DNA of 45,946 nt. It comes from a virus. Of the stretch, positions 24,362 through 36,890 are shown in pieces. Position 1 is the stretch's first letter, and the number at the start of each line of letters is the position of its first letter. The notes beneath the pieces are model-generated. The model searched no databases. It was not told the DNA's origin and was given only the letters and a program-made list of their open reading frames with translations. The position numbers were made by a program, and so were the translations under genes. The stretch covers positions 1 to 45,946 of IMG/VR virus record IMGVR_UViG_3300029682_000009. One strand, 5' to 3'.

Positions 24362-24562
24362 TTAGTTGGCGACAGCGTGTTTAATCACCGGAATGCGTTT
24401 GAATTTTTTCTGCAAGAACAAAAGGCGACCTTCTGGCATTCCAGACTTAAGCCATCCAGAAACGCTGGCCGGTTTAACTTCACAGATGTTTGCAACAGCT
24501 GTAGTTCCGCCTAAAGAATCAACGATTAGGCGGGCTGTCTGAGTATCGGTTTTTTTGCGCAT
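24362..24562 (-). CDS. cro: Cro-like HTH regulator
   Basis: 66 aa, divergent from cI-like gene, LGGTTAVANICEVKPASVSGWL. Confidence 0.7.
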   Translation of the reverse strand: MRKKTDTQTARLIVDSLGGTTAVANICEVKPASVSGWLKSGMPEGRLLFLQKKFKRIPVIKHAVAN

Positions 24563-24574
24563 AGCTAAATTTTT

Positions 24575-24667
24575 CCTAATTTTTGCCTTATTAAATTATA
24601 AGGTTTTCCGAATTACTTAATCAATGCGCCTAATTATTTTTCTTTAAAATGTATTAGGAAAACCTAA
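24575..24667. promoter_or_regulatory. Immunity switch: rightward promoter and three operator-like sites
   Basis: Minus strand TTGATT-18-TATAAT (24619..24624 / 24595..24600); CCTAATTTTTGCCTTA 24575..24590; TAAGGTTTTCCGAA 24599..24612; TTAGGAAAACCTAA 24654..24667. Confidence 0.65.
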
Positions 24668-24686: not shown

Positions 24687-25370
24687 ATGAACGAAAAAAC
24701 AACATTGGCAGAGCGTTTAACCTTGGCGTTGAGTGATTCCGGATTAAAGAAAAGTGACATCGCTAGGTTATGTTTTATCTCCCCGGCATCTGTATCAGAT
24801 TGGTTTTCCGGTAAGTCAAAAAGCATCAAGTCCATTTACCTTCCCAAAGTTGCCAAGGTTCTTGGCGTCTCCTCGACATGGCTTGCGACTGGGAACGGTC
24901 CCATGAAATCCCCAAACGTACTGGTGACAGAGGATGTGTGTGATGACGATGATTGGGTAGAGATTCCTGAGTACAAAATCCGATTTGCGGCAGGTTTCGA
25001 ACAAAACTCCACATTGGAAGAACTGGCTTCTGAATACAAAGCTGCTTATCGTCGTTCATGGTTCCAGAGAAAGCACGTCAATCCAGAAGACTGCAAGCGC
25101 TTCAAAGTAAAAGGAGATTCCATGGAACCTCTTTTGCTAGACCATGATGTTGTCTTAGTTGATTGCTCCAAAACTGAGATCATCGATGGCCGAATCTATG
25201 CCTTTGTTTTTGGGGATGCTTTAAGAGTAAAGCGGCTTTATAGAAAAATCGACGGCTCGATAATGGTGCATTCAGAAAATCCAAACTTTCCGGATGAAAC
25301 CATTAAGCCAGCAGACACTGAGCAAGTTCAAATTATCGGAGAAGTCATTGAAAGATCTGGATCAGTTTGA
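24687..25370 (+). CDS. cI: CI-like repressor (XRE HTH plus S24 LexA-type peptidase domain)
   Basis: N-terminal LKKSDIARLCFISPASVSDWFSG; C-terminal VKGDSMEPLL ... LRVKRL. Confidence 0.85.
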   Translation: MNEKTTLAERLTLALSDSGLKKSDIARLCFISPASVSDWFSGKSKSIKSIYLPKVAKVLGVSSTWLATGNGPMKSPNVLVTEDVCDDDDWVEIPEYKIRFAAGFEQNSTLEELASEYKAAYRRSWFQRKHVNPEDCKRFKVKGDSMEPLLLDHDVVLVDCSKTEIIDGRIYAFVFGDALRVKRLYRKIDGSIMVHSENPNFPDETIKPADTEQVQIIGEVIERSGSV

Positions 25371-25391
25371 TAAAGATTTAGGAGAAGAAAA

Positions 25392-25958
25392 ATGCTTTTC
25401 TGTGAACGAGGCATCCGTGCTCCCGAACGCCTTTATTCTTTAAATAAATTTTATGTGATACCGTCTGAAGCAGAGAAAAAATGGAAACTCATGGGTATAT
25501 ACGTACCCATATTTTTCTTTTTCATATCTCACGCTAAGGCGGGCATGTCGGCAGAGATCTTGAATCAAACTGCGACTTTATTATGTGAAGCCTTGTTCAA
25601 GAAGAAATACAAAAGAAGCTTTTTCTTCTTCAAAAAACTTATCGAAGACCCTTTTGAAGATTATTGGGATGAAGTCATTGGCATAGCATTTTCAGCAGTT
25701 TGGCAACAAGCGAAATGGGGCGACTTCATGGAAAAGGGATACAGCATGTCATGGCACCTGGGCAGACAATTTGAATATATGTCGGTTTTGAACTTTCGCC
25801 CAAATTTCCTTAGATCTAGGTTAGAAGTCGATGAGGAATTGACAAGAATTTATCAGTCCGAGTGCAAAAAGGAAAAAGAAATTTCAGCCCTTGCGTGGAG
25901 GCTATCTCGGATGCCTGCTTCAGAAAGAGAGAAGCTGTTGCAACGAAGATACCAATAA
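25392..25958 (+). CDS. Hypothetical protein, first gene downstream of repressor
   Basis: AGGAG RBS 7 nt before ATG; contains weak hairpin plus T-run at 25491..25522, so alternative start at 25545 (MSAEILNQ) is possible. Confidence 0.45.
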   Translation: MLFCERGIRAPERLYSLNKFYVIPSEAEKKWKLMGIYVPIFFFFISHAKAGMSAEILNQTATLLCEALFKKKYKRSFFFFKKLIEDPFEDYWDEVIGIAFSAVWQQAKWGDFMEKGYSMSWHLGRQFEYMSVLNFRPNFLRSRLEVDEELTRIYQSECKKEKEISALAWRLSRMPASEREKLLQRRYQ

Positions 25959-26049
25959 CTCACCCAAAAGAGAAGGACAGCCGAAGGTTCGGGGCTTTGT
26001 GCGACACATATCAACGCAAGGACATTTATAAAAGAATTTAGGAGGCAAA

Positions 26050-26514
26050 ATGTCTCAGTACGATGTTCCAGAAAACGATGCAAGAGAAATAATGCTACTG
26101 CCAAAGGAGGGAGAACCAAATGACTGGATTGCAAATGATGGCTCGGAGAATGTTATTTCAATGGCTTTCCCTGCCGTTGTTACTAAGGGTCCTCCGTTAT
26201 CTGGACTGAAGGTTGTTTTTGATTACAAATACCCTCGCGACATTCCTGGCGAAAGGATACGAGCAACACTCTTTCAAGAAACAGGTAAAAAGAGACAACG
26301 AATGCGGCAGCGCGTCTATCAAATCGAGGTCAGATCTGGGAAGATTTCTTCTGCTCACCAATTGCCACATGAGCACATTGGAACGCTAAGATTAAACTTT
26401 GACAAAGTACTTAACTTTAGCGAGTGCTTGGATCTATTTTGCGAAAGATGTAATTTAACAATTTGTGGGGATCAGGAGATTCTTGATCCCGGAAAATTCG
26501 AGTTATTGCCATGA
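26050..26514 (+). CDS. Hypothetical 154-aa protein
   Basis: TAGGAGG RBS; ATGA overlap with next gene; no family recognised. Confidence 0.55.
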   Translation: MSQYDVPENDAREIMLLPKEGEPNDWIANDGSENVISMAFPAVVTKGPPLSGLKVVFDYKYPRDIPGERIRATLFQETGKKRQRMRQRVYQIEVRSGKISSAHQLPHEHIGTLRLNFDKVLNFSECLDLFCERCNLTICGDQEILDPGKFELLP

Positions 26515-27278
26515 TGAACGAAAGATTGCCTGATATTCTAGGAGAAAGCTTTCAGTTAGTACTAATGCAAGAGAAATCTTCCATTTGGCAACTCTCTTTG
26601 CCTATCAAAACTCTCGATAACGACAACTTTGAAATCTATCTAAGAAAAACGGGCAAAAACTATCACCTCTTCGATGATGGGAACACATTGTGGACCGCCA
26701 CTGGCTTAGGTGCGAAATCTAAACTCTTCAAAGAGAAGCTTGCACTTGTAGCTCACATAAATGAACTAAACCTAGATAAGTTCGGCGAGTTGAATGCTAC
26801 CTGCACTGAAGATAATTTGATTGAAACCGTCGGAAAGTTCATTAAAGCGTTAAATCAAACAGATTTATTTTTAGCTACCGACCCAGAGCTTTTCCAGGTT
26901 AAAGAAAACCTATATGAAATTGCCAAAAACATGTTGTCTGAGCTAACCACCGCGTTAATTTGTAAGCCAAAGGTTAGTTTCACCGGATACTCGACCAATA
27001 AATATTCTTTCGATTTTAAGATCAACGATTTACTAGTCGATGCCTTACCGCCATCCGGAAACAGTATCAACTCTTGCATAGCTAAAGTAGTCGATATCAG
27101 AGCAGCGCTTTCCGATGAAAGGGAGAAAAACTTTTATCCAACTGCTTTAATTGACGACAGATTCGTTGATAAAAAAGACAAGCATATAAATGGATTTTTG
27201 AAAAAATTAACAACAATAATGAGCGCCTATACTTTTTCCCAAGCTCCTAGTCTCATTGAAAGATCTTCTTTCCTTTAA
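26511..27278 (+). CDS. DUF1828/DUF1829-like protein
   Basis: LPIKTLDNDNFEIYLRKTGKNYHLFDDGNTLWTATGLG...LNLDKFGELNATCTEDNLIETVGKFIKALNQTDLF matches my recollection of the DUF1828 pattern. Confidence 0.5.
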   Translation: MMNERLPDILGESFQLVLMQEKSSIWQLSLPIKTLDNDNFEIYLRKTGKNYHLFDDGNTLWTATGLGAKSKLFKEKLALVAHINELNLDKFGELNATCTEDNLIETVGKFIKALNQTDLFLATDPELFQVKENLYEIAKNMLSELTTALICKPKVSFTGYSTNKYSFDFKINDLLVDALPPSGNSINSCIAKVVDIRAALSDEREKNFYPTALIDDRFVDKKDKHINGFLKKLTTIMSAYTFSQAPSLIERSSFL

Positions 27279-27288
27279 TTCAGCTGCA

Positions 27289-27332
27289 CCGCCTCCGGGC
27301 GGTTTTTTATTGCCGCGAGAGCGGCTTTTTTT
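27289..27332 (+). terminator. Tandem rho-independent terminators ending the repressor operon
   Basis: CCGCC-TCCG-GGCGG-TTTTTT then GCCGC-GAGA-GCGGC-TTTTTTT. Confidence 0.85.
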
Positions 27333-27386
27333 GTTGCCTAAAAGCGCAAACACAGACATTCAGATCAATGAGAACTAAGAAAAATT

Positions 27387-27449
27387 TTAGGAAAAAATTT
27401 AGGTTTTCCTAATTTTTCCCTTGTTTCTGCCTAATTTTTACCTTATACT
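27387..27449 (+). promoter_or_regulatory. Leftward-type early promoter with operator sites matching those at 24575..24667
   Basis: TTGTTT-17-TATACT (27421..27426 / 27444..27449); TTAGGTTTTCCTAA 27399..27412 is the exact reverse complement of 24654..24667; CCTAATTTTTACCTTA 27430..27445. Confidence 0.65.
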
Positions 27450-35318: not shown

Positions 35319-35610
35319 CATTGACTATGACAAATTGTCCAGCATGGTGGCAGATAAAGTCTCCAGCCAGATCGCTGAAAAGCTGATTCAGAAAACAACA
35401 AAGCTCACACTCTCTCGTCCAGAAGTAGAGGTTAGGATCGGTTTTGCTCCTGGCTCTTCTGCCGCCCGTGAAGTAATGAAGGATCCGAAGTTCCCTAAGC
35501 CTGACGCATTCTCCGAGAACGGGCGCGATCGTTGGTACACAAAAGACATTGACGATTACATGGAAAGCAAAAGACACGCCCGAGCCAAGCTCGCTATTTC
35601 AGCCGCTTAG
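35311..35610 (+). CDS. AlpA/Xis-like excisionase candidate
   Basis: LTLSRPEVEVRIGFAPGSSAAREVMKDPKFPKPDAFSENGRDRWYTKDIDDYM; converges on int with 17-nt tail overlap. Confidence 0.55.
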   Translation: MNDIDYDKLSSMVADKVSSQIAEKLIQKTTKLTLSRPEVEVRIGFAPGSSAAREVMKDPKFPKPDAFSENGRDRWYTKDIDDYMESKRHARAKLAISAA

Positions 35611-36670
35611 CAATTTCTTCTGCGCTCGCTCTGTAGTATCTCTGGAGCATCTTTAAATCTTTGTGCCCCGTTTGTCTAGCAAGCGCCAGGACATCTAAAC
35701 GGGGCGCCCCTGTTTCTGGATCAGGGCTGGCGGCCCAAGTCGCAAAAGTTGCGCGGCCGTCATGAAAATTCAGCCCTTCTTTGATTAGTCGGTTTTGAGA
35801 ATCATATTCAGGTCCAAGGCCGGCTCTATCCCGAACTTTTCGGAATAACGTATCTCTGTTGTGATCGTTAAGTCCGCCAAAAATCCGTGGTTCATACTCG
35901 AGCTCCATAACTAATTTAAGAATTTCCCGAGCTCTTGCAGACAAGGCCACGTCTCTTCTTGACAATGTTTTTGTAGCCTCCGCCGGCACATGTAGCACAT
36001 TGTCACCTAACCAAGAATATTCAATCTTTAAAAGCTCCCCTGCTCGCATTCCTGTTTGACAACTAAAAAGGAAGGCTGCTACCGCAAGTTGCATTTTGTT
36101 CTTTGGCACTGTGTGGCCGTCCCAACCGCTAGCCTGCAAAAGTTTCTCTATATCCTCGTCTGAAGCAACTCTCTCGCGGTGCTCTGGCTCCCGTGGTTTC
36201 TCCACACCCCGGCAAGGATTCACATCTGTGAGTTCGTTTTTAATAGCAAATTGAAAAACGTCAGAGAGAATTGTCAGCTCTCTATTAACAGTGGACGGTG
36301 AAATATAGTTGTCTCGGTTTTTGGCACGTTCGCTGAGGCGACGTTCAATGTAGTTCTCAATCGTTCTGTTTGTAAAAGAAGATAGAGTTTTAGCCGCCAG
36401 TTTATCTCTCTGGAGGCGTCTCAGTCGGATTTCTTCTGTACGTTTGGAGCGTTTCTGTGAAGTGACTTCGCTGATGTATTCGTCAATCAGCGCGGCCAGA
36501 GTAATCGAAGAAGAGCGTTCTTCGGCGCTAATGTCCAACTCTGCCGCAAAGCGTTTTGCCTCAGCTCGAGTTTTAAATGTTTTGGAGAATCGCTGTTTGT
36601 TTCCGTCCGCCTGAAGTCTATAGCCATAAACTTCATACGTACCGCAGAGAGTTTTTCTTATTCCTGCCAT
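35594..36670 (-). CDS. int: Tyrosine integrase
   Basis: Start set at MAGIRKTLCGTYEVYGYRL (ATG 36670); C-terminal HDGRATFATW ... GHKDLKMLQRYY catalytic pattern. Confidence 0.85.
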   Translation of the reverse strand: MAGIRKTLCGTYEVYGYRLQADGNKQRFSKTFKTRAEAKRFAAELDISAEERSSSITLAALIDEYISEVTSQKRSKRTEEIRLRRLQRDKLAAKTLSSFTNRTIENYIERRLSERAKNRDNYISPSTVNRELTILSDVFQFAIKNELTDVNPCRGVEKPREPEHRERVASDEDIEKLLQASGWDGHTVPKNKMQLAVAAFLFSCQTGMRAGELLKIEYSWLGDNVLHVPAEATKTLSRRDVALSARAREILKLVMELEYEPRIFGGLNDHNRDTLFRKVRDRAGLGPEYDSQNRLIKEGLNFHDGRATFATWAASPDPETGAPRLDVLALARQTGHKDLKMLQRYYRASAEEIAKRLK

Positions 36671-36684
36671 ATCCGCCTCGAGAA

Positions 36685-36716
36685 TTTCCGTTAGCGTTTC
36701 CGTTAAATTTCCGTTA
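36685..36716 (+). repeat. Three direct TTTCCGTTA repeats (arm-type Int-binding site candidates)
   Basis: 36685..36693, 36697..36705, 36708..36716, spaced 11-12 bp, just upstream of int. Confidence 0.65.
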
Positions 36717-36803
36717 TCTAAACCTGAATATAACGAGATATGCCAAAACGGACAACAAAAAATCCCGTAAAACCGAGGCTTAACGGGATATGACAAGTAT
36801 GTC

Positions 36804-36890
36804 TGGTGCCCGGGACTGGACTCGAACCAGCACGCCCGCGAAGGCGCTAGCACCTGAAGCTAGTGCGTCTACCAATTTCGCCACCCGGGC
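36804..36890 (-). tRNA. tRNA-Leu (anticodon CAG), complete, CCA encoded
   Basis: GCCCGGGTGGCGAAATTGGTAGACGCACTAGCTTCAGGTGCTAGCGCCTTCGCGGGCGTGCTGGTTCGAGTCCAGTCCCGGGCACCA: 7-bp acceptor stem, CTAGC/GCTAG anticodon stem, loop TTCAGGT, long variable arm, TTCGAGT T-loop. Confidence 0.9.

What the first reader, a model, noticed from the sequence alone, without database searches (positions are those of the whole stretch)
25392..27278. AT-rich three-gene module co-transcribed with the cI-like repressor and closed by tandem terminators (rexAB-like position)
Seen: three ORFs of 188, 154 and 255 aa follow directly after the repressor on the same strand. The last two are coupled by an ATGA overlap. This stretch is visibly more AT-rich than the rest of the genome. 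It ends in two consecutive strong terminators (27289..27332), right before the early-left operators. The 255-aa protein matches my recollection of DUF1828/DUF1829, and the other two match nothing I recognise. Established: genes in this position are expressed in lysogens and often encode exclusion or defence functions, such as lambda rexAB or P22 sieB. Inference: this is a candidate prophage-encoded anti-phage or superinfection-exclusion system.
Basis: partly seen in the sequence, partly recalled or inferred. Interest (0 to 1): 0.7.

Follow-up and report, generated by a model that had tools for sequence, protein, structure and literature searches.

The report
Defence-candidate gene pair beside prophage repressor
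Next to the repressor gene of a gut-bacterium (Parasutterella) prophage lies a swappable cargo slot; here it holds an orphan gene and a conserved two-gene cassette that is a divergent form of a predicted but never tested anti-phage system.

Summary

It is not one three-gene module. Phages with the same cI (96-100% identical) carry p188 and the p154/p255 pair independently. The slot from the cI stop to the terminators holds interchangeable cargo. That cargo includes canonical PDC-M24, a PD-Lambda-5-like ATPase plus methylase, PDC-S13, a HipA-like kinase pair and an Mrr-type nuclease.

The p154/p255 block (26000-27343) travels as a unit into phages with unrelated cI genes. It is under strong purifying selection (dN/dS 0.05-0.18).

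p255 is a DUF1828/DUF1829 protein; Pfam places DUF1829 in the PD-(D/E)xK clan. It matches PADLOC PDC-M24B. p154 belongs to phrog_2017, has an invariant PHEH-G motif (PHEHIG in 9 of 10), and does not match PDC-M24A (DUF6978).

The A-to-B pairing held in all 13 lineages that could be checked. Most lie directly after a repressor, in Burkholderia, Pseudomonas, Helicobacter and Variovorax phages.

Best reading: a lysogen-expressed, nuclease-based two-gene defence candidate. The function is untested.

The parts
24362..24562 (-). Cro-like 66-aa ORF, divergent from cI. A sigma-70-like promoter (TTGATT-18-TATAAT) at 24624-24595 points into it.
   Evidence: The positional counterpart in L003 carries Pfam YdaS_toxin/Cro-type HTH.
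24654..24667 (.). Operator-like palindrome TTAGGAAAACCTAA (OR side), 20 nt upstream of the cI start codon.
   Evidence: only two perfect copies in the window; repeats I4, I5 and D1.
24687..25370 (+). cI-type repressor, 227 aa (HTH plus S24 autopeptidase).
   Evidence: Peptidase_S24 E 1.4e-22, HTH_3 E 2.5e-5; dN/dS 0.04 against L008.
25392..25958 (+). p188, an orphan accessory ORF with an AGGAG Shine-Dalgarno sequence. It is linked to this cI allele and is present or absent independently of the pair.
   Evidence: No family, PDB or phage match. dN/dS is 0.20 for codons 52-188. A 47%-identical homologue in L049 keeps the N-terminus in frame.
25491..25510 (+). Terminator-like hairpin followed by AUUUUUCUUUUUC, inside the 5' part of p188. 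It could be an attenuator or a coincidence.
   Evidence: -12.3 kcal/mol, z -3.6; in L008/L010 one pair is compensated (T-A to G-C) and one is broken.
26000..27343 (+). Mobile mosaic block: ribosome-binding site, p154, p255 and both terminators.
   Evidence: 91-99% nucleotide identity in L001, L006, L007, L011, L014, L016 and L017, whose cI genes are only 23-33% identical to the window's.
26050..26514 (+). p154, component A: a phrog_2017-family small protein. K19, Y90, Q91, S101 and P106-H107-E108-H109-x-G111 are invariant in the 10-sequence alignment, and I110 is nearly so.
   Evidence: relatives match phrog_2017 at E 1e-21 to 1e-53; alignments; dN/dS 0.09-0.18. No PADLOC or Pfam hit.
26511..27278 (+). 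p255, component B: a DUF1828 (N-terminal) plus DUF1829-type (C-terminal) protein, translationally coupled to p154 by the ATGA overlap.
   Evidence: DUF1828. PDC-M24B E 1.4e-13; phrog_1960 E 4e-16.. AF2 model, pLDDT 88.3. D55, K192 and D216 are 93-100% conserved; dN/dS 0.05.
27288..27309 (+). Terminator 1: ACCGCC-UCCG-GGCGGU followed by U6.
   Evidence: It is the right-hand junction of all cargo variants.
27312..27332 (+). Terminator 2: GCCGC-GAGA-GCGGC followed by U7.
27399..27447 (.). OL-side operator-like palindrome TTAGGTTTTCCTAA, plus three 11-nt-spaced copies of the repeat that is also found at 24571-24592.
   Evidence: repeats D1 and I5.

Best explanation
The stretch is the cargo slot of the immunity region of a temperate Parasutterella siphophage. 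The slot is bounded on the left by the cI repressor gene and on the right by a conserved double terminator that precedes the OL-type operators. It holds two separate accessory units.

Unit 1 is p188, an orphan gene tied to this cI allele.

Unit 2 is a self-contained, horizontally exchanged two-gene cassette. p154 (A) is translationally coupled to p255 (B).

- B is a DUF1828/DUF1829 protein. Its C-terminal domain belongs to the PD-(D/E)xK, restriction-endonuclease-like, clan.
- A is a roughly 150-aa protein with an invariant His cluster (S-H ... P-H-E-H-x-G, x being Ile in 9 of 10 sequences). It takes the place that DUF6978 holds in the PADLOC candidate system PDC-M24.

Inferred mechanism:
- The cassette has no recognisable promoter of its own and is read through from the cI promoter in lysogens.
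- A and B form a complex.
- The complex senses an incoming phage, probably through the DUF1828 domain or through A.
- It then unleashes a nuclease activity (the DUF1829 domain of B, possibly with A) that stops the infection, by destroying phage DNA or by abortive infection.

What is shown: the anatomy, the mobility, the purifying selection, the conserved pairing, the family assignments and the hotspot context. What is inferred: expression in lysogens, the A-B interaction, nuclease activity and the anti-phage phenotype.
For: 1. Hotspot. 26 IMG/VR contigs with 96-100% identical cI carry different cargo between the cI stop (about 25368) and the terminators (27288). The cargo includes:
- canonical PDC-M24: DUF6978 A at E 7e-43 plus DUF1828/DUF1829 B at E 1.4e-79;
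- an AAA_15/AAA_21 ATPase plus a PD-Lambda-5_B methylase (E 4e-112);
- PDC-S13 (E 1e-118);
- a HipA_2 kinase with a partner gene;
- an Mrr_cat protein upstream of the pair in L011.

2. Cassette mobility. Window 26000-27343 is 91-99% identical in phages whose cI is only 23-33% identical.

3. Conserved pairing at 20-25% identity. A lies immediately upstream of B, abutting or overlapping it, in every lineage that could be checked. Five of five loci found through A have B, and three of three found through B have A. Burkholderia phi644-2 gp48/gp47, Pseudomonas P7869, a Helicobacter pametensis prophage and L076/L077 show the same order.

4. Position. A repressor lies directly upstream on the same strand in 9 of 14 lineages. 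S. aureus phage 37 carries canonical PDC-M24 in its lysogeny module.

5. Selection. dN/dS is 0.05-0.18.

6. Family. p255 matches PDC-M24B. PDC systems were nominated because they are embedded in BREX, DISARM and type I RM loci. DefensePredictor lists E. coli DUF1828+DUF1829 proteins as predicted novel defence genes, with log-odds 5.6-6.3. Its table assigns DUF1829 to Pfam clan CL0236 PDDEXK. DUF1829 also occurs in the validated DS-6B/HipAD system.

7. Structure. The AF2 model has pLDDT 88.3. Its weak Foldseek matches recur among PD-(D/E)xK folds: ERCC4/Mus81, Can2/Card1, Vsr, DUF559 and a 'PD-(D/E)XK nuclease' viral protein. An acidic/Lys cluster (D168, D177, K192, D195, D215, D216, R217) is conserved and intact in p255.

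8. Transcription. No sigma-70-like promoter was found on the + strand between p188 and p154, and the spacer has no stable structure.
Against: - No member of the A/B family has a published phenotype in the literature that could be searched. PDC-M24 is one of 145 explicitly untested candidates. The E. coli homologue appears only in the prediction tables (S5 and S10) of DefensePredictor. It was not found in any of the other supplementary files held, some of which were stored only in part.
- p154 does not match PDC-M24A or DUF6978. Profile-profile comparison gives only E 0.05.
- No structural match reaches E < 1e-3 in the PDB, and the canonical (D/E)xK triplet is not evident. Nuclease activity is therefore not established.
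- The p154 model failed (pLDDT 32.6).
- A terminator-like hairpin lies between the cI stop and the pair and could limit read-through.
- The very tight linkage to repressor genes could instead point to a role in the phage's own lysogeny control.
Confidence: 0.55

Rival explanations
1. The pair is a toxin-antitoxin-type addiction module. It stabilises the prophage, or any element that carries it, by post-segregational killing and has no dedicated anti-phage role. One partner (A, or the nuclease-like B) is toxic and the other neutralises it.
For: - It consists of two small, translationally coupled genes that move as a unit.
- It also occurs as a stand-alone pair between housekeeping genes: L027 next to Fic and PhzF genes, and L028 between dehydrogenases.
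- In DS-6/HipAD, a DUF1829-containing protein is proposed to be the antitoxin-like partner of a HipA kinase.
Against: - TA and defence roles are not exclusive; DS-6 itself defends.
- The slot's other cargo is mostly classical defence systems rather than TA modules.
- No toxicity data exist.
- In L003-5 the A gene is split at an A9 run while B stays intact. That is hard to reconcile with A being an essential antitoxin, unless the split is an assembly error.
Confidence: 0.15
2. The pair belongs to the phage's own lysogeny or induction machinery. It might be a DNA-processing or repressor-associated function needed for establishing, maintaining or leaving lysogeny, rather than an accessory weapon.
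For: It lies directly downstream of cI-type repressors in phages of Beta-, Gamma- and Epsilonproteobacteria, and within the lysogeny module of a staphylococcal phage.
Against: - Phages with 96-100% identical cI and conserved flanks lack the pair or carry unrelated cargo in its place, so it is dispensable.
- The same block serves five or more unrelated cI alleles.
- Some copies lie outside any prophage.
Confidence: 0.1
3. One reading: p188, p154 and p255 form one three-gene operon-level system, analogous to a three-component defence system.
For: All three are on the same strand with short gaps, share low G+C and share the terminators.
Against: - p188 occurs without the pair in L046, L050-53, L055 and L056.
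- The pair occurs without p188 in L001, L006, L007, L011, L014 and L016/17.
- Neither occurs in L059-62, L066 and L069-70.
- The homology block of the pair starts at 26000, after p188.
- None of the distant pairs has a p188 homologue.
Confidence: 0.05

Closest known systems
PADLOC candidate system PDC-M24 (Payne et al. 2024 bioRxiv, 'guilt-by-embedding'; cassette FAM_00129>>FAM_00065). A is DUF6978 and B is DUF1828+DUF1829.
   Same: - It has two genes, with a small A of about 150 aa immediately upstream of a B of about 250 aa on the same strand.
- B is homologous: PDC-M24B E 1.4e-13, and 22% identity to a canonical B over 203 aa.
- It occupies the same slot in sister phages (L059/61/62) and the lysogeny module of S. 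aureus phage 37.
   Different: - A is from another sequence family, phrog_2017, with a PHEHIG motif. It has no PDC-M24A or DUF6978 hit, and hhalign gives only E 0.05.
- Since no PDC-M24A model matches p154, a PADLOC run would presumably not report this locus as a PDC-M24 system.
- PDC-M24 itself has never been tested.
Phage lambda rexA-rexB. Other cI-adjacent prophage defences, such as P22 sieB and BTP1 bstA, are cited from general knowledge.
   Same: The layout is the same: the accessory genes lie after cI on the same strand, are closed by terminators and are followed by the leftward operator and promoter region. The expected expression is from the repressor promoter in lysogens.
   Different: - There is no sequence relationship. 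The PADLOC scan returned only PDC-M24B.
- RexB is a membrane channel. Nothing comparable was recognised in p154 or p255 from their sequences, but no membrane-segment prediction was run.
- The inferred effector here is nuclease-like.
DS-6 / HipAD (DefensePredictor, Science 2026; PMC13092281)
   Same: It is a two-gene system in which one partner carries a DUF1829 domain (reported there at HHpred probability 0.78). It is experimentally protective.
   Different: - Its partner is a HipA-like kinase, and its DUF1829 domain is fused to DUF3037 rather than DUF1828.
- A HipA_2 kinase pair does sit in the same slot in L052/L056. However, its 271-aa partner shows no detectable similarity to p255.
PD-(D/E)xK (restriction-endonuclease-like) nucleases, Pfam clan CL0236
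   Same: - DUF1829 is listed in this clan.
- The weak structural matches recur among ERCC4/Mus81, Can2/Card1, Vsr, DUF559 and a viral PD-(D/E)XK protein.
- A conserved Asp/Lys cluster is present.
   Different: - No match reaches significance against solved structures.
- The conserved Lys (K192) lies in a predicted helix rather than in a (D/E)xK strand motif.
- Catalysis is untested.

Membership tests
PADLOC PDC-M24 | The B component matches a PDC-M24B profile. | tested here: met
   PDLC04539, E 1.4e-13, residues 19-232 of 255. A canonical B (L059) scores E 1.4e-79, so p255 is a distant member.
PADLOC PDC-M24 | The A component matches a PDC-M24A profile (Pfam DUF6978). | tested here: not met
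   p154 and its distant relatives have no PADLOC hit at E <= 1 or <= 0.1. They have no DUF6978 hit in Pfam. hhalign of the A family against a 3-sequence DUF6978 alignment gives E 0.05, with the His motifs in register. This is suggestive only.
PADLOC PDC-M24 | A lies immediately upstream of B on the same strand. | tested here: met
   There is a 4-nt ATGA overlap. The same order is found in every related locus.
Pfam DUF1828 + DUF1829 architecture | An N-terminal DUF1828 domain scores above the gathering threshold. | tested here: met
   29.0 bits against a cut-off of 22, residues 31-114.
Pfam DUF1828 + DUF1829 architecture | A C-terminal DUF1829 domain is present. | tested here: inconclusive
   It is not detected in p255 itself, even at E <= 5. 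It is detected in 25 of 58 relatives that align over their full length and in the canonical B of L059. The conserved residues are retained in p255.
PD-(D/E)xK nuclease superfamily | A restriction-endonuclease-like alpha/beta core with a catalytic D...(D/E)xK constellation. | tested here: inconclusive
   Clan membership of DUF1829 comes from a published table. The Foldseek matches are only weak: PDB best E 0.028, and a BFVD PD-(D/E)XK protein at E 0.014 with TM 0.54 on the target. D168, D177, K192, D195, D215 and D216 are conserved, but no canonical triplet was identified.
Lambda Rex-type lysogen-expressed exclusion (positional class) | The genes lie between cI and the immunity terminator, are co-oriented with cI and lie upstream of OL. 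| tested here: met
Lambda Rex-type lysogen-expressed exclusion (positional class) | The genes are transcribed from the repressor promoter in the lysogen. | not testable with these tools
   The evidence is geometric only. No + strand promoter-like site was found before p154. There is a terminator-like hairpin at 25491-25510.
Lambda Rex-type lysogen-expressed exclusion (positional class) | Homology to RexA or RexB. | tested here: not met
   The only PADLOC hit is PDC-M24B. There are no Pfam hits apart from DUF1828 in p255 and a sub-threshold EF_assoc_2 match (E 0.026) in p188.
HipAD / DS-6 | A HipA-like kinase partnered with a DUF3037-DUF1829 protein. | tested here: not met
   None of the three window proteins has a kinase or DUF3037 domain.
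Type II toxin-antitoxin module | One product is toxic and is neutralised by direct binding of the other. | not testable with these tools
   This needs expression and toxicity assays. The p154 model failed, and no complex prediction tool was available.

The most novel reading that the evidence does not exclude
The phrog_2017-type small protein and the DUF1828/DUF1829 protein form a previously undescribed, widespread two-component nuclease system. Temperate phages from several proteobacterial classes keep it directly behind their repressor gene, and staphylococcal phages do the same with a DUF6978 partner. It would be a new repressor-linked immunity family. Since no PDC-M24A model matches the A component, PADLOC would presumably miss it; other tools were not checked. 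In addition, the slot between cI and the terminators in Parasutterella phages would be a compact defence hotspot. Its unannotated cargo (p188, a 333-aa protein, a 160-aa membrane protein, a 317-aa PDDEXK_5-like protein) would contain further new systems.
Probability: 0.4. Interest if true: 0.65.

Novelty: new variant of a known kind. Interest (0 to 1): 0.5.

Why it matters
If the pair protects lysogens, three things follow.

- It would give a function to two long-standing DUF families, DUF1828/DUF1829 and phrog_2017, which occur in temperate phages of Burkholderia, Pseudomonas, Helicobacter, Staphylococcus and gut Sutterellaceae.
- It would validate a PADLOC candidate (PDC-M24). It would also show that the partner of the DUF1828/DUF1829 protein can be exchanged, which bears on how such systems sense phages.
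- The cargo slot defined here has sharp, conserved borders at the cI stop and a double terminator. That makes it a practical 'bait' for mining new defence genes from gut viromes, including for hosts such as Parasutterella where no phage biology exists.

If the pair is only a TA module or has no phenotype, the finding is an ordinary moron locus.

Tried and rejected
- DNA and protein searches of the window against INPHARED phages found nothing. The phage is known only from metagenomes. The BFVD top hit is the identical protein of 'Siphoviridae sp. ctRg81'.
- A scan of GTDB genomes with the p255 alignment found no relative. The broader alignments A2 and A3 were too diverse to scan with.
It failed with pLDDT 32.6, so no fold search was run on it.
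- Sequence-profile searches of the PDB with the B and A families and with p188 gave nothing meaningful.
- I considered that p188 really starts at ATG 25545, giving 137 aa. The reasons were dN/dS of 1.27 for codons 1-51 and the hairpin at 25491-25510. This is largely rejected, because the 47%-identical L049 homologue conserves the N-terminus with an in-frame indel.
- I considered that the 14-nt identity between the 3' ends of cI and p255 marks a recombination scar. The p255 end is the same in phages with unrelated cI genes, so it does not track the local cI. This is left unexplained.
- I tested whether the partner of the HipA-like kinase in L052 is related to p255, as in DS-6B. No similarity was found.
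- I checked whether L003-5 are E. coli prophages, in order to link them to the DefensePredictor E. coli protein. There was no match.
- Literature searches for PDC-M24, DUF1828 and DUF6978 gave no functional study.
Full report
OBSERVATION

The window holds four co-oriented ORFs on the + strand: 24687-25370 (227 aa), 25392-25958 (188 aa, 'p188'), 26050-26514 (154 aa, 'p154') and 26511-27278 (255 aa, 'p255'). The first is a cI-type repressor with HTH_3 and Peptidase_S24 domains.

p154 and p255 overlap by ATGA.

The stretch 25392-27278 has 39.9% G+C against 46.8% for the window. It is the lowest-G+C stretch of its size in the window, in the bottom 0.3%.

Two GC-rich hairpins, each followed by a U-run, lie at 27288-27303 and 27312-27325. 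They are the best terminator-like sites in the region and fold as expected.

A perfect palindrome, TTAGGN4CCTAA, occurs exactly twice in the window. One copy lies 20 nt before the cI start codon and the other just after the terminators. The two regions also share a 22-nt repeat, which is iterated three times at 11-nt spacing on the downstream side. A divergent Cro-like ORF and a good sigma-70-like promoter face away from cI.

This is the lambda-type layout: OR, cI, cargo, terminator, OL.

HOST AND ELEMENT

The integrase (35594-36853, minus strand) is 98% identical to one in Parasutterella excrementihominis YIT 11859. A tRNA-Leu overlaps the integrase 5' end.

There is no match in INPHARED. The identical p255 is listed in BFVD under 'Siphoviridae sp. 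ctRg81', and many IMG/VR and Logan contigs carry close relatives. The window is therefore a temperate phage of a gut betaproteobacterium that is known only from metagenomes.

ARE THE ORFS GENES?

Against relatives with 8-10% DNA divergence, dN/dS is 0.09-0.18 for p154 and 0.05 for p255. It is 0.20 for p188 codons 52-188.

The first 51 codons of p188 gave dN/dS of 1.27, but on only 17 substitutions. They also contain a terminator-like hairpin at 25491-25510 (z -3.6). In L008/L010 one pair of this hairpin is compensated and one is broken. However, a 47%-identical homologue in L049 conserves this N-terminus with an in-frame 2-codon indel. The 188-aa reading frame is therefore probably real, and the hairpin remains unexplained.

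NOT ONE MODULE BUT A CARGO SLOT

Two kinds of comparison separate the three genes.

First, the DNA block 26000-27343 (p154, p255 and both terminators) recurs at 91-99% identity in phages whose repressors are only 23-33% identical to the window's. In those phages it sits behind different upstream genes:
- a 317-aa PDDEXK_5-like protein (L001, L006, L007, L014);
- a 493-aa Mrr_cat protein (L011);
- nothing at all (L016/17).

Second, among 26 IMG/VR contigs with 96-100% identical cI:
- seven carry p188 plus the pair;
- seven carry p188 without the pair;
- one carries a divergent p188 followed by a 160-aa membrane protein;
- the rest carry neither.

In all of them homology to the window stops at the cI stop or at the end of p188 and resumes exactly at the first terminator.

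The replacement cargo includes the following:
- canonical PDC-M24: a DUF6978 protein at E 7e-43 and a DUF1828+DUF1829 protein at E 1.4e-79;
- an AAA_15/AAA_21 ATPase with a methylase that matches PD-Lambda-5_B at E 4e-112;
- PDC-S13 (E 1e-118);
- a HipA_2 kinase with a partner gene;
- P63C and RhuM-type genes;
- a 333-aa protein of unknown function.

So the interval between cI and the double terminator is a hotspot of interchangeable accessory genes, many of which are recognised or candidate defence systems.

THE PAIR

p255 carries DUF1828 above the Pfam threshold. It matches PADLOC PDC-M24B (E 1.4e-13) and phrog_1960.

An exhaustive profile search found 74 representative clusters at E <= 1e-3, mostly proteins of about 250 aa matched over most of their length. 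A second profile search found 213 clusters. All 58 aligned members carry DUF1828, and 25 carry a detectable DUF1829.

p154 matches only phrog_2017, at E 1.2e-5. Its distant relatives match that family at E 1e-21 to 1e-53.

In loci retrieved through distant B proteins (20-25% identity), a 138-157-aa ORF abuts or overlaps the B start and aligns with p154. The motif Y-Q ... S-H ... P-H-E-H-x-G is invariant, with Ile at x in 9 of 10 sequences. Conversely, all five GTDB loci retrieved through that A family have a B gene immediately downstream.

Cultured phages show the same order:
- Burkholderia phi644-2: gp49 (repressor-like, phrog_3), then gp48, then gp47;
- Pseudomonas P7869: CI, then A, then B;
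- a Helicobacter pametensis prophage: an HTH regulator, then A, then B.

Further IMG/VR loci agree.

In total, A is followed by B in 13 of 13 lineages where the downstream sequence is available. In 9 of 14 lineages a repressor lies directly upstream. At least two copies (L027, L028) sit among housekeeping genes, and one (L025) sits at a prophage end next to a tape-measure gene.

In L003-5 the A gene is split, but the split falls exactly at an A9 homopolymer. It may be an assembly error or slippage.

RELATION TO PDC-M24

PDC systems are 145 candidates, explicitly untested, that were nominated because they are embedded in BREX, DISARM or type I RM loci. PDC-M24 is the cassette FAM_00129>>FAM_00065.

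The canonical A is DUF6978. p154 and its relatives do not match it.

A profile-profile comparison with a small DUF6978 alignment gives only E 0.05. It does put the His motifs and the C-terminal F..CN motif in register. In the two separate alignments both families also begin with an A..L..LPK-like motif.

I treat A as a possible remote homologue or an analogous replacement. Membership of PDC-M24 is met for B and for gene order, and not met for A.

S. aureus phage 37 carries canonical PDC-M24 between its repressor and integrase. The association with the lysogeny module therefore extends to Gram-positive phages.

WHAT THE PROTEINS MIGHT DO

The AF2 model of p255 is confident (pLDDT 88.3). It shows an N-terminal beta-rich DUF1828 part, a helical middle and a C-terminal alpha/beta domain.

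No solved structure matches at E < 1e-3. The weak matches recur among PD-(D/E)xK folds (ERCC4/Mus81, Can2/Card1 and others) alongside Rab-type Rossmann-like folds.

In BFVD the weak hits include a viral 'PD-(D/E)XK nuclease', ERCC4, DUF559, Vsr and a Holliday-junction resolvase.

A published domain table places DUF1829 in Pfam clan CL0236, PDDEXK.

The conserved polar residues in the C-terminal domain are D168, D177, K192 (93%), D195, D215, D216 (98%) and R217. D55 in DUF1828 is invariant. All of these are retained in p255.

DefensePredictor lists E. coli DUF1828+DUF1829 proteins as predicted novel defence genes. They appear only in its prediction tables (S5 and S10) and were not found in the other supplementary files held. 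Its validated DS-6B/HipAD protein contains DUF1829 fused to DUF3037, and is proposed to bind a HipA-like kinase and DNA.

The p154 model failed, so the role of its His cluster is unknown. It could be a metal site or a nuclease motif.

INTERPRETATION

The best-supported reading is that the pair is an autonomous, mobile, two-component system. It is placed where it will be expressed with the repressor in lysogens, and it most likely acts against incoming phages through a nuclease-like effector.

Expression in lysogens, the A-B interaction, nuclease activity and protection are all inferences. They are weighed in the rival-explanations section. The last is contradicted by the independent presence and absence of p188 and the pair.

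p188 remains an orphan with no detectable relatives outside this phage group.

VERDICT

The locus is a new variant of a known, but only computationally predicted, kind of system, and it sits in a well-defined prophage cargo hotspot. Interest is moderate.

Noticed in passing
window 25491-25510 (plus the U-rich tail to about 25523): A terminator-like hairpin lies inside the 5' part of the p188 ORF, about 120 nt after the cI stop. Its energy z-score is -3.6. In L008/L010 one stem pair is compensated (T-A to G-C) and another is broken. It could attenuate read-through from cI into the cargo, or it could be a coincidence.
   Followed up: partly
window 25345-25358 and 27253-27266: An exact 14-nt repeat, TCATTGAAAGATCT, lies in the same frame and at the same distance (9 nt) from the stop codons of cI and p255, encoding (V/L)IERS in both. 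The p255 copy is identical in phages with unrelated cI genes, so it does not track the local cI. It may be an old recombination junction or chance.
   Followed up: partly
loci L046-L071 (IMG/VR contigs with the same cI); slot equivalent to window 25368-27288: The slot between cI and the terminators is a hotspot. Its cargo includes canonical PDC-M24, an ATPase plus a PD-Lambda-5_B-like methylase, PDC-S13 (Bro-N), a HipA_2 kinase with a 271-aa partner, and P63C and RhuM-type genes. It also holds unannotated proteins: 333 aa in L046, and a 160-aa protein in L049 with long hydrophobic stretches that reads as a membrane protein.
   Followed up: partly
L003 7778-7786 (also L004, L005): In a 50-60% identical version of the pair, the A gene is split into two frames exactly at an A9 homopolymer. 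This could be an assembly error, a pseudogene, or slippage or phase variation. The B protein of this locus is indexed in 116 blocks of the contig collection.
   Followed up: partly
window 36804-36890 and 35594-36853 (minus strand): A tRNA-Leu (CAG) gene overlaps the 5' end of the integrase ORF. The integrase is 98% identical to one in Parasutterella excrementihominis YIT 11859. This suggests tRNA-Leu is the attachment site and Parasutterella the host.
   Followed up: partly
L001 6498-7451, L006, L007, L014; L011 3922-5403: In relatives, the gene between cI and the pair is a 317-aa protein with weak PDDEXK_5, PDC-S01 and phrog_5018 hits, or a 493-aa protein with an Mrr_cat restriction-endonuclease domain and a C-terminal match (residues 436-484) to a PHROG 'membrane associated protein' family (phrog_21287). 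These are further candidate defence genes stacked with the pair.
   Followed up: no
window 25376-25384, 26036-26044 and 27386-27403: The ribosome-binding regions of p188 and p154 share the string ATTTAGGAG. This contains the TTAGG operator half-site, which is also repeated at OL. It was not tested whether the repressor could bind there.
   Followed up: no
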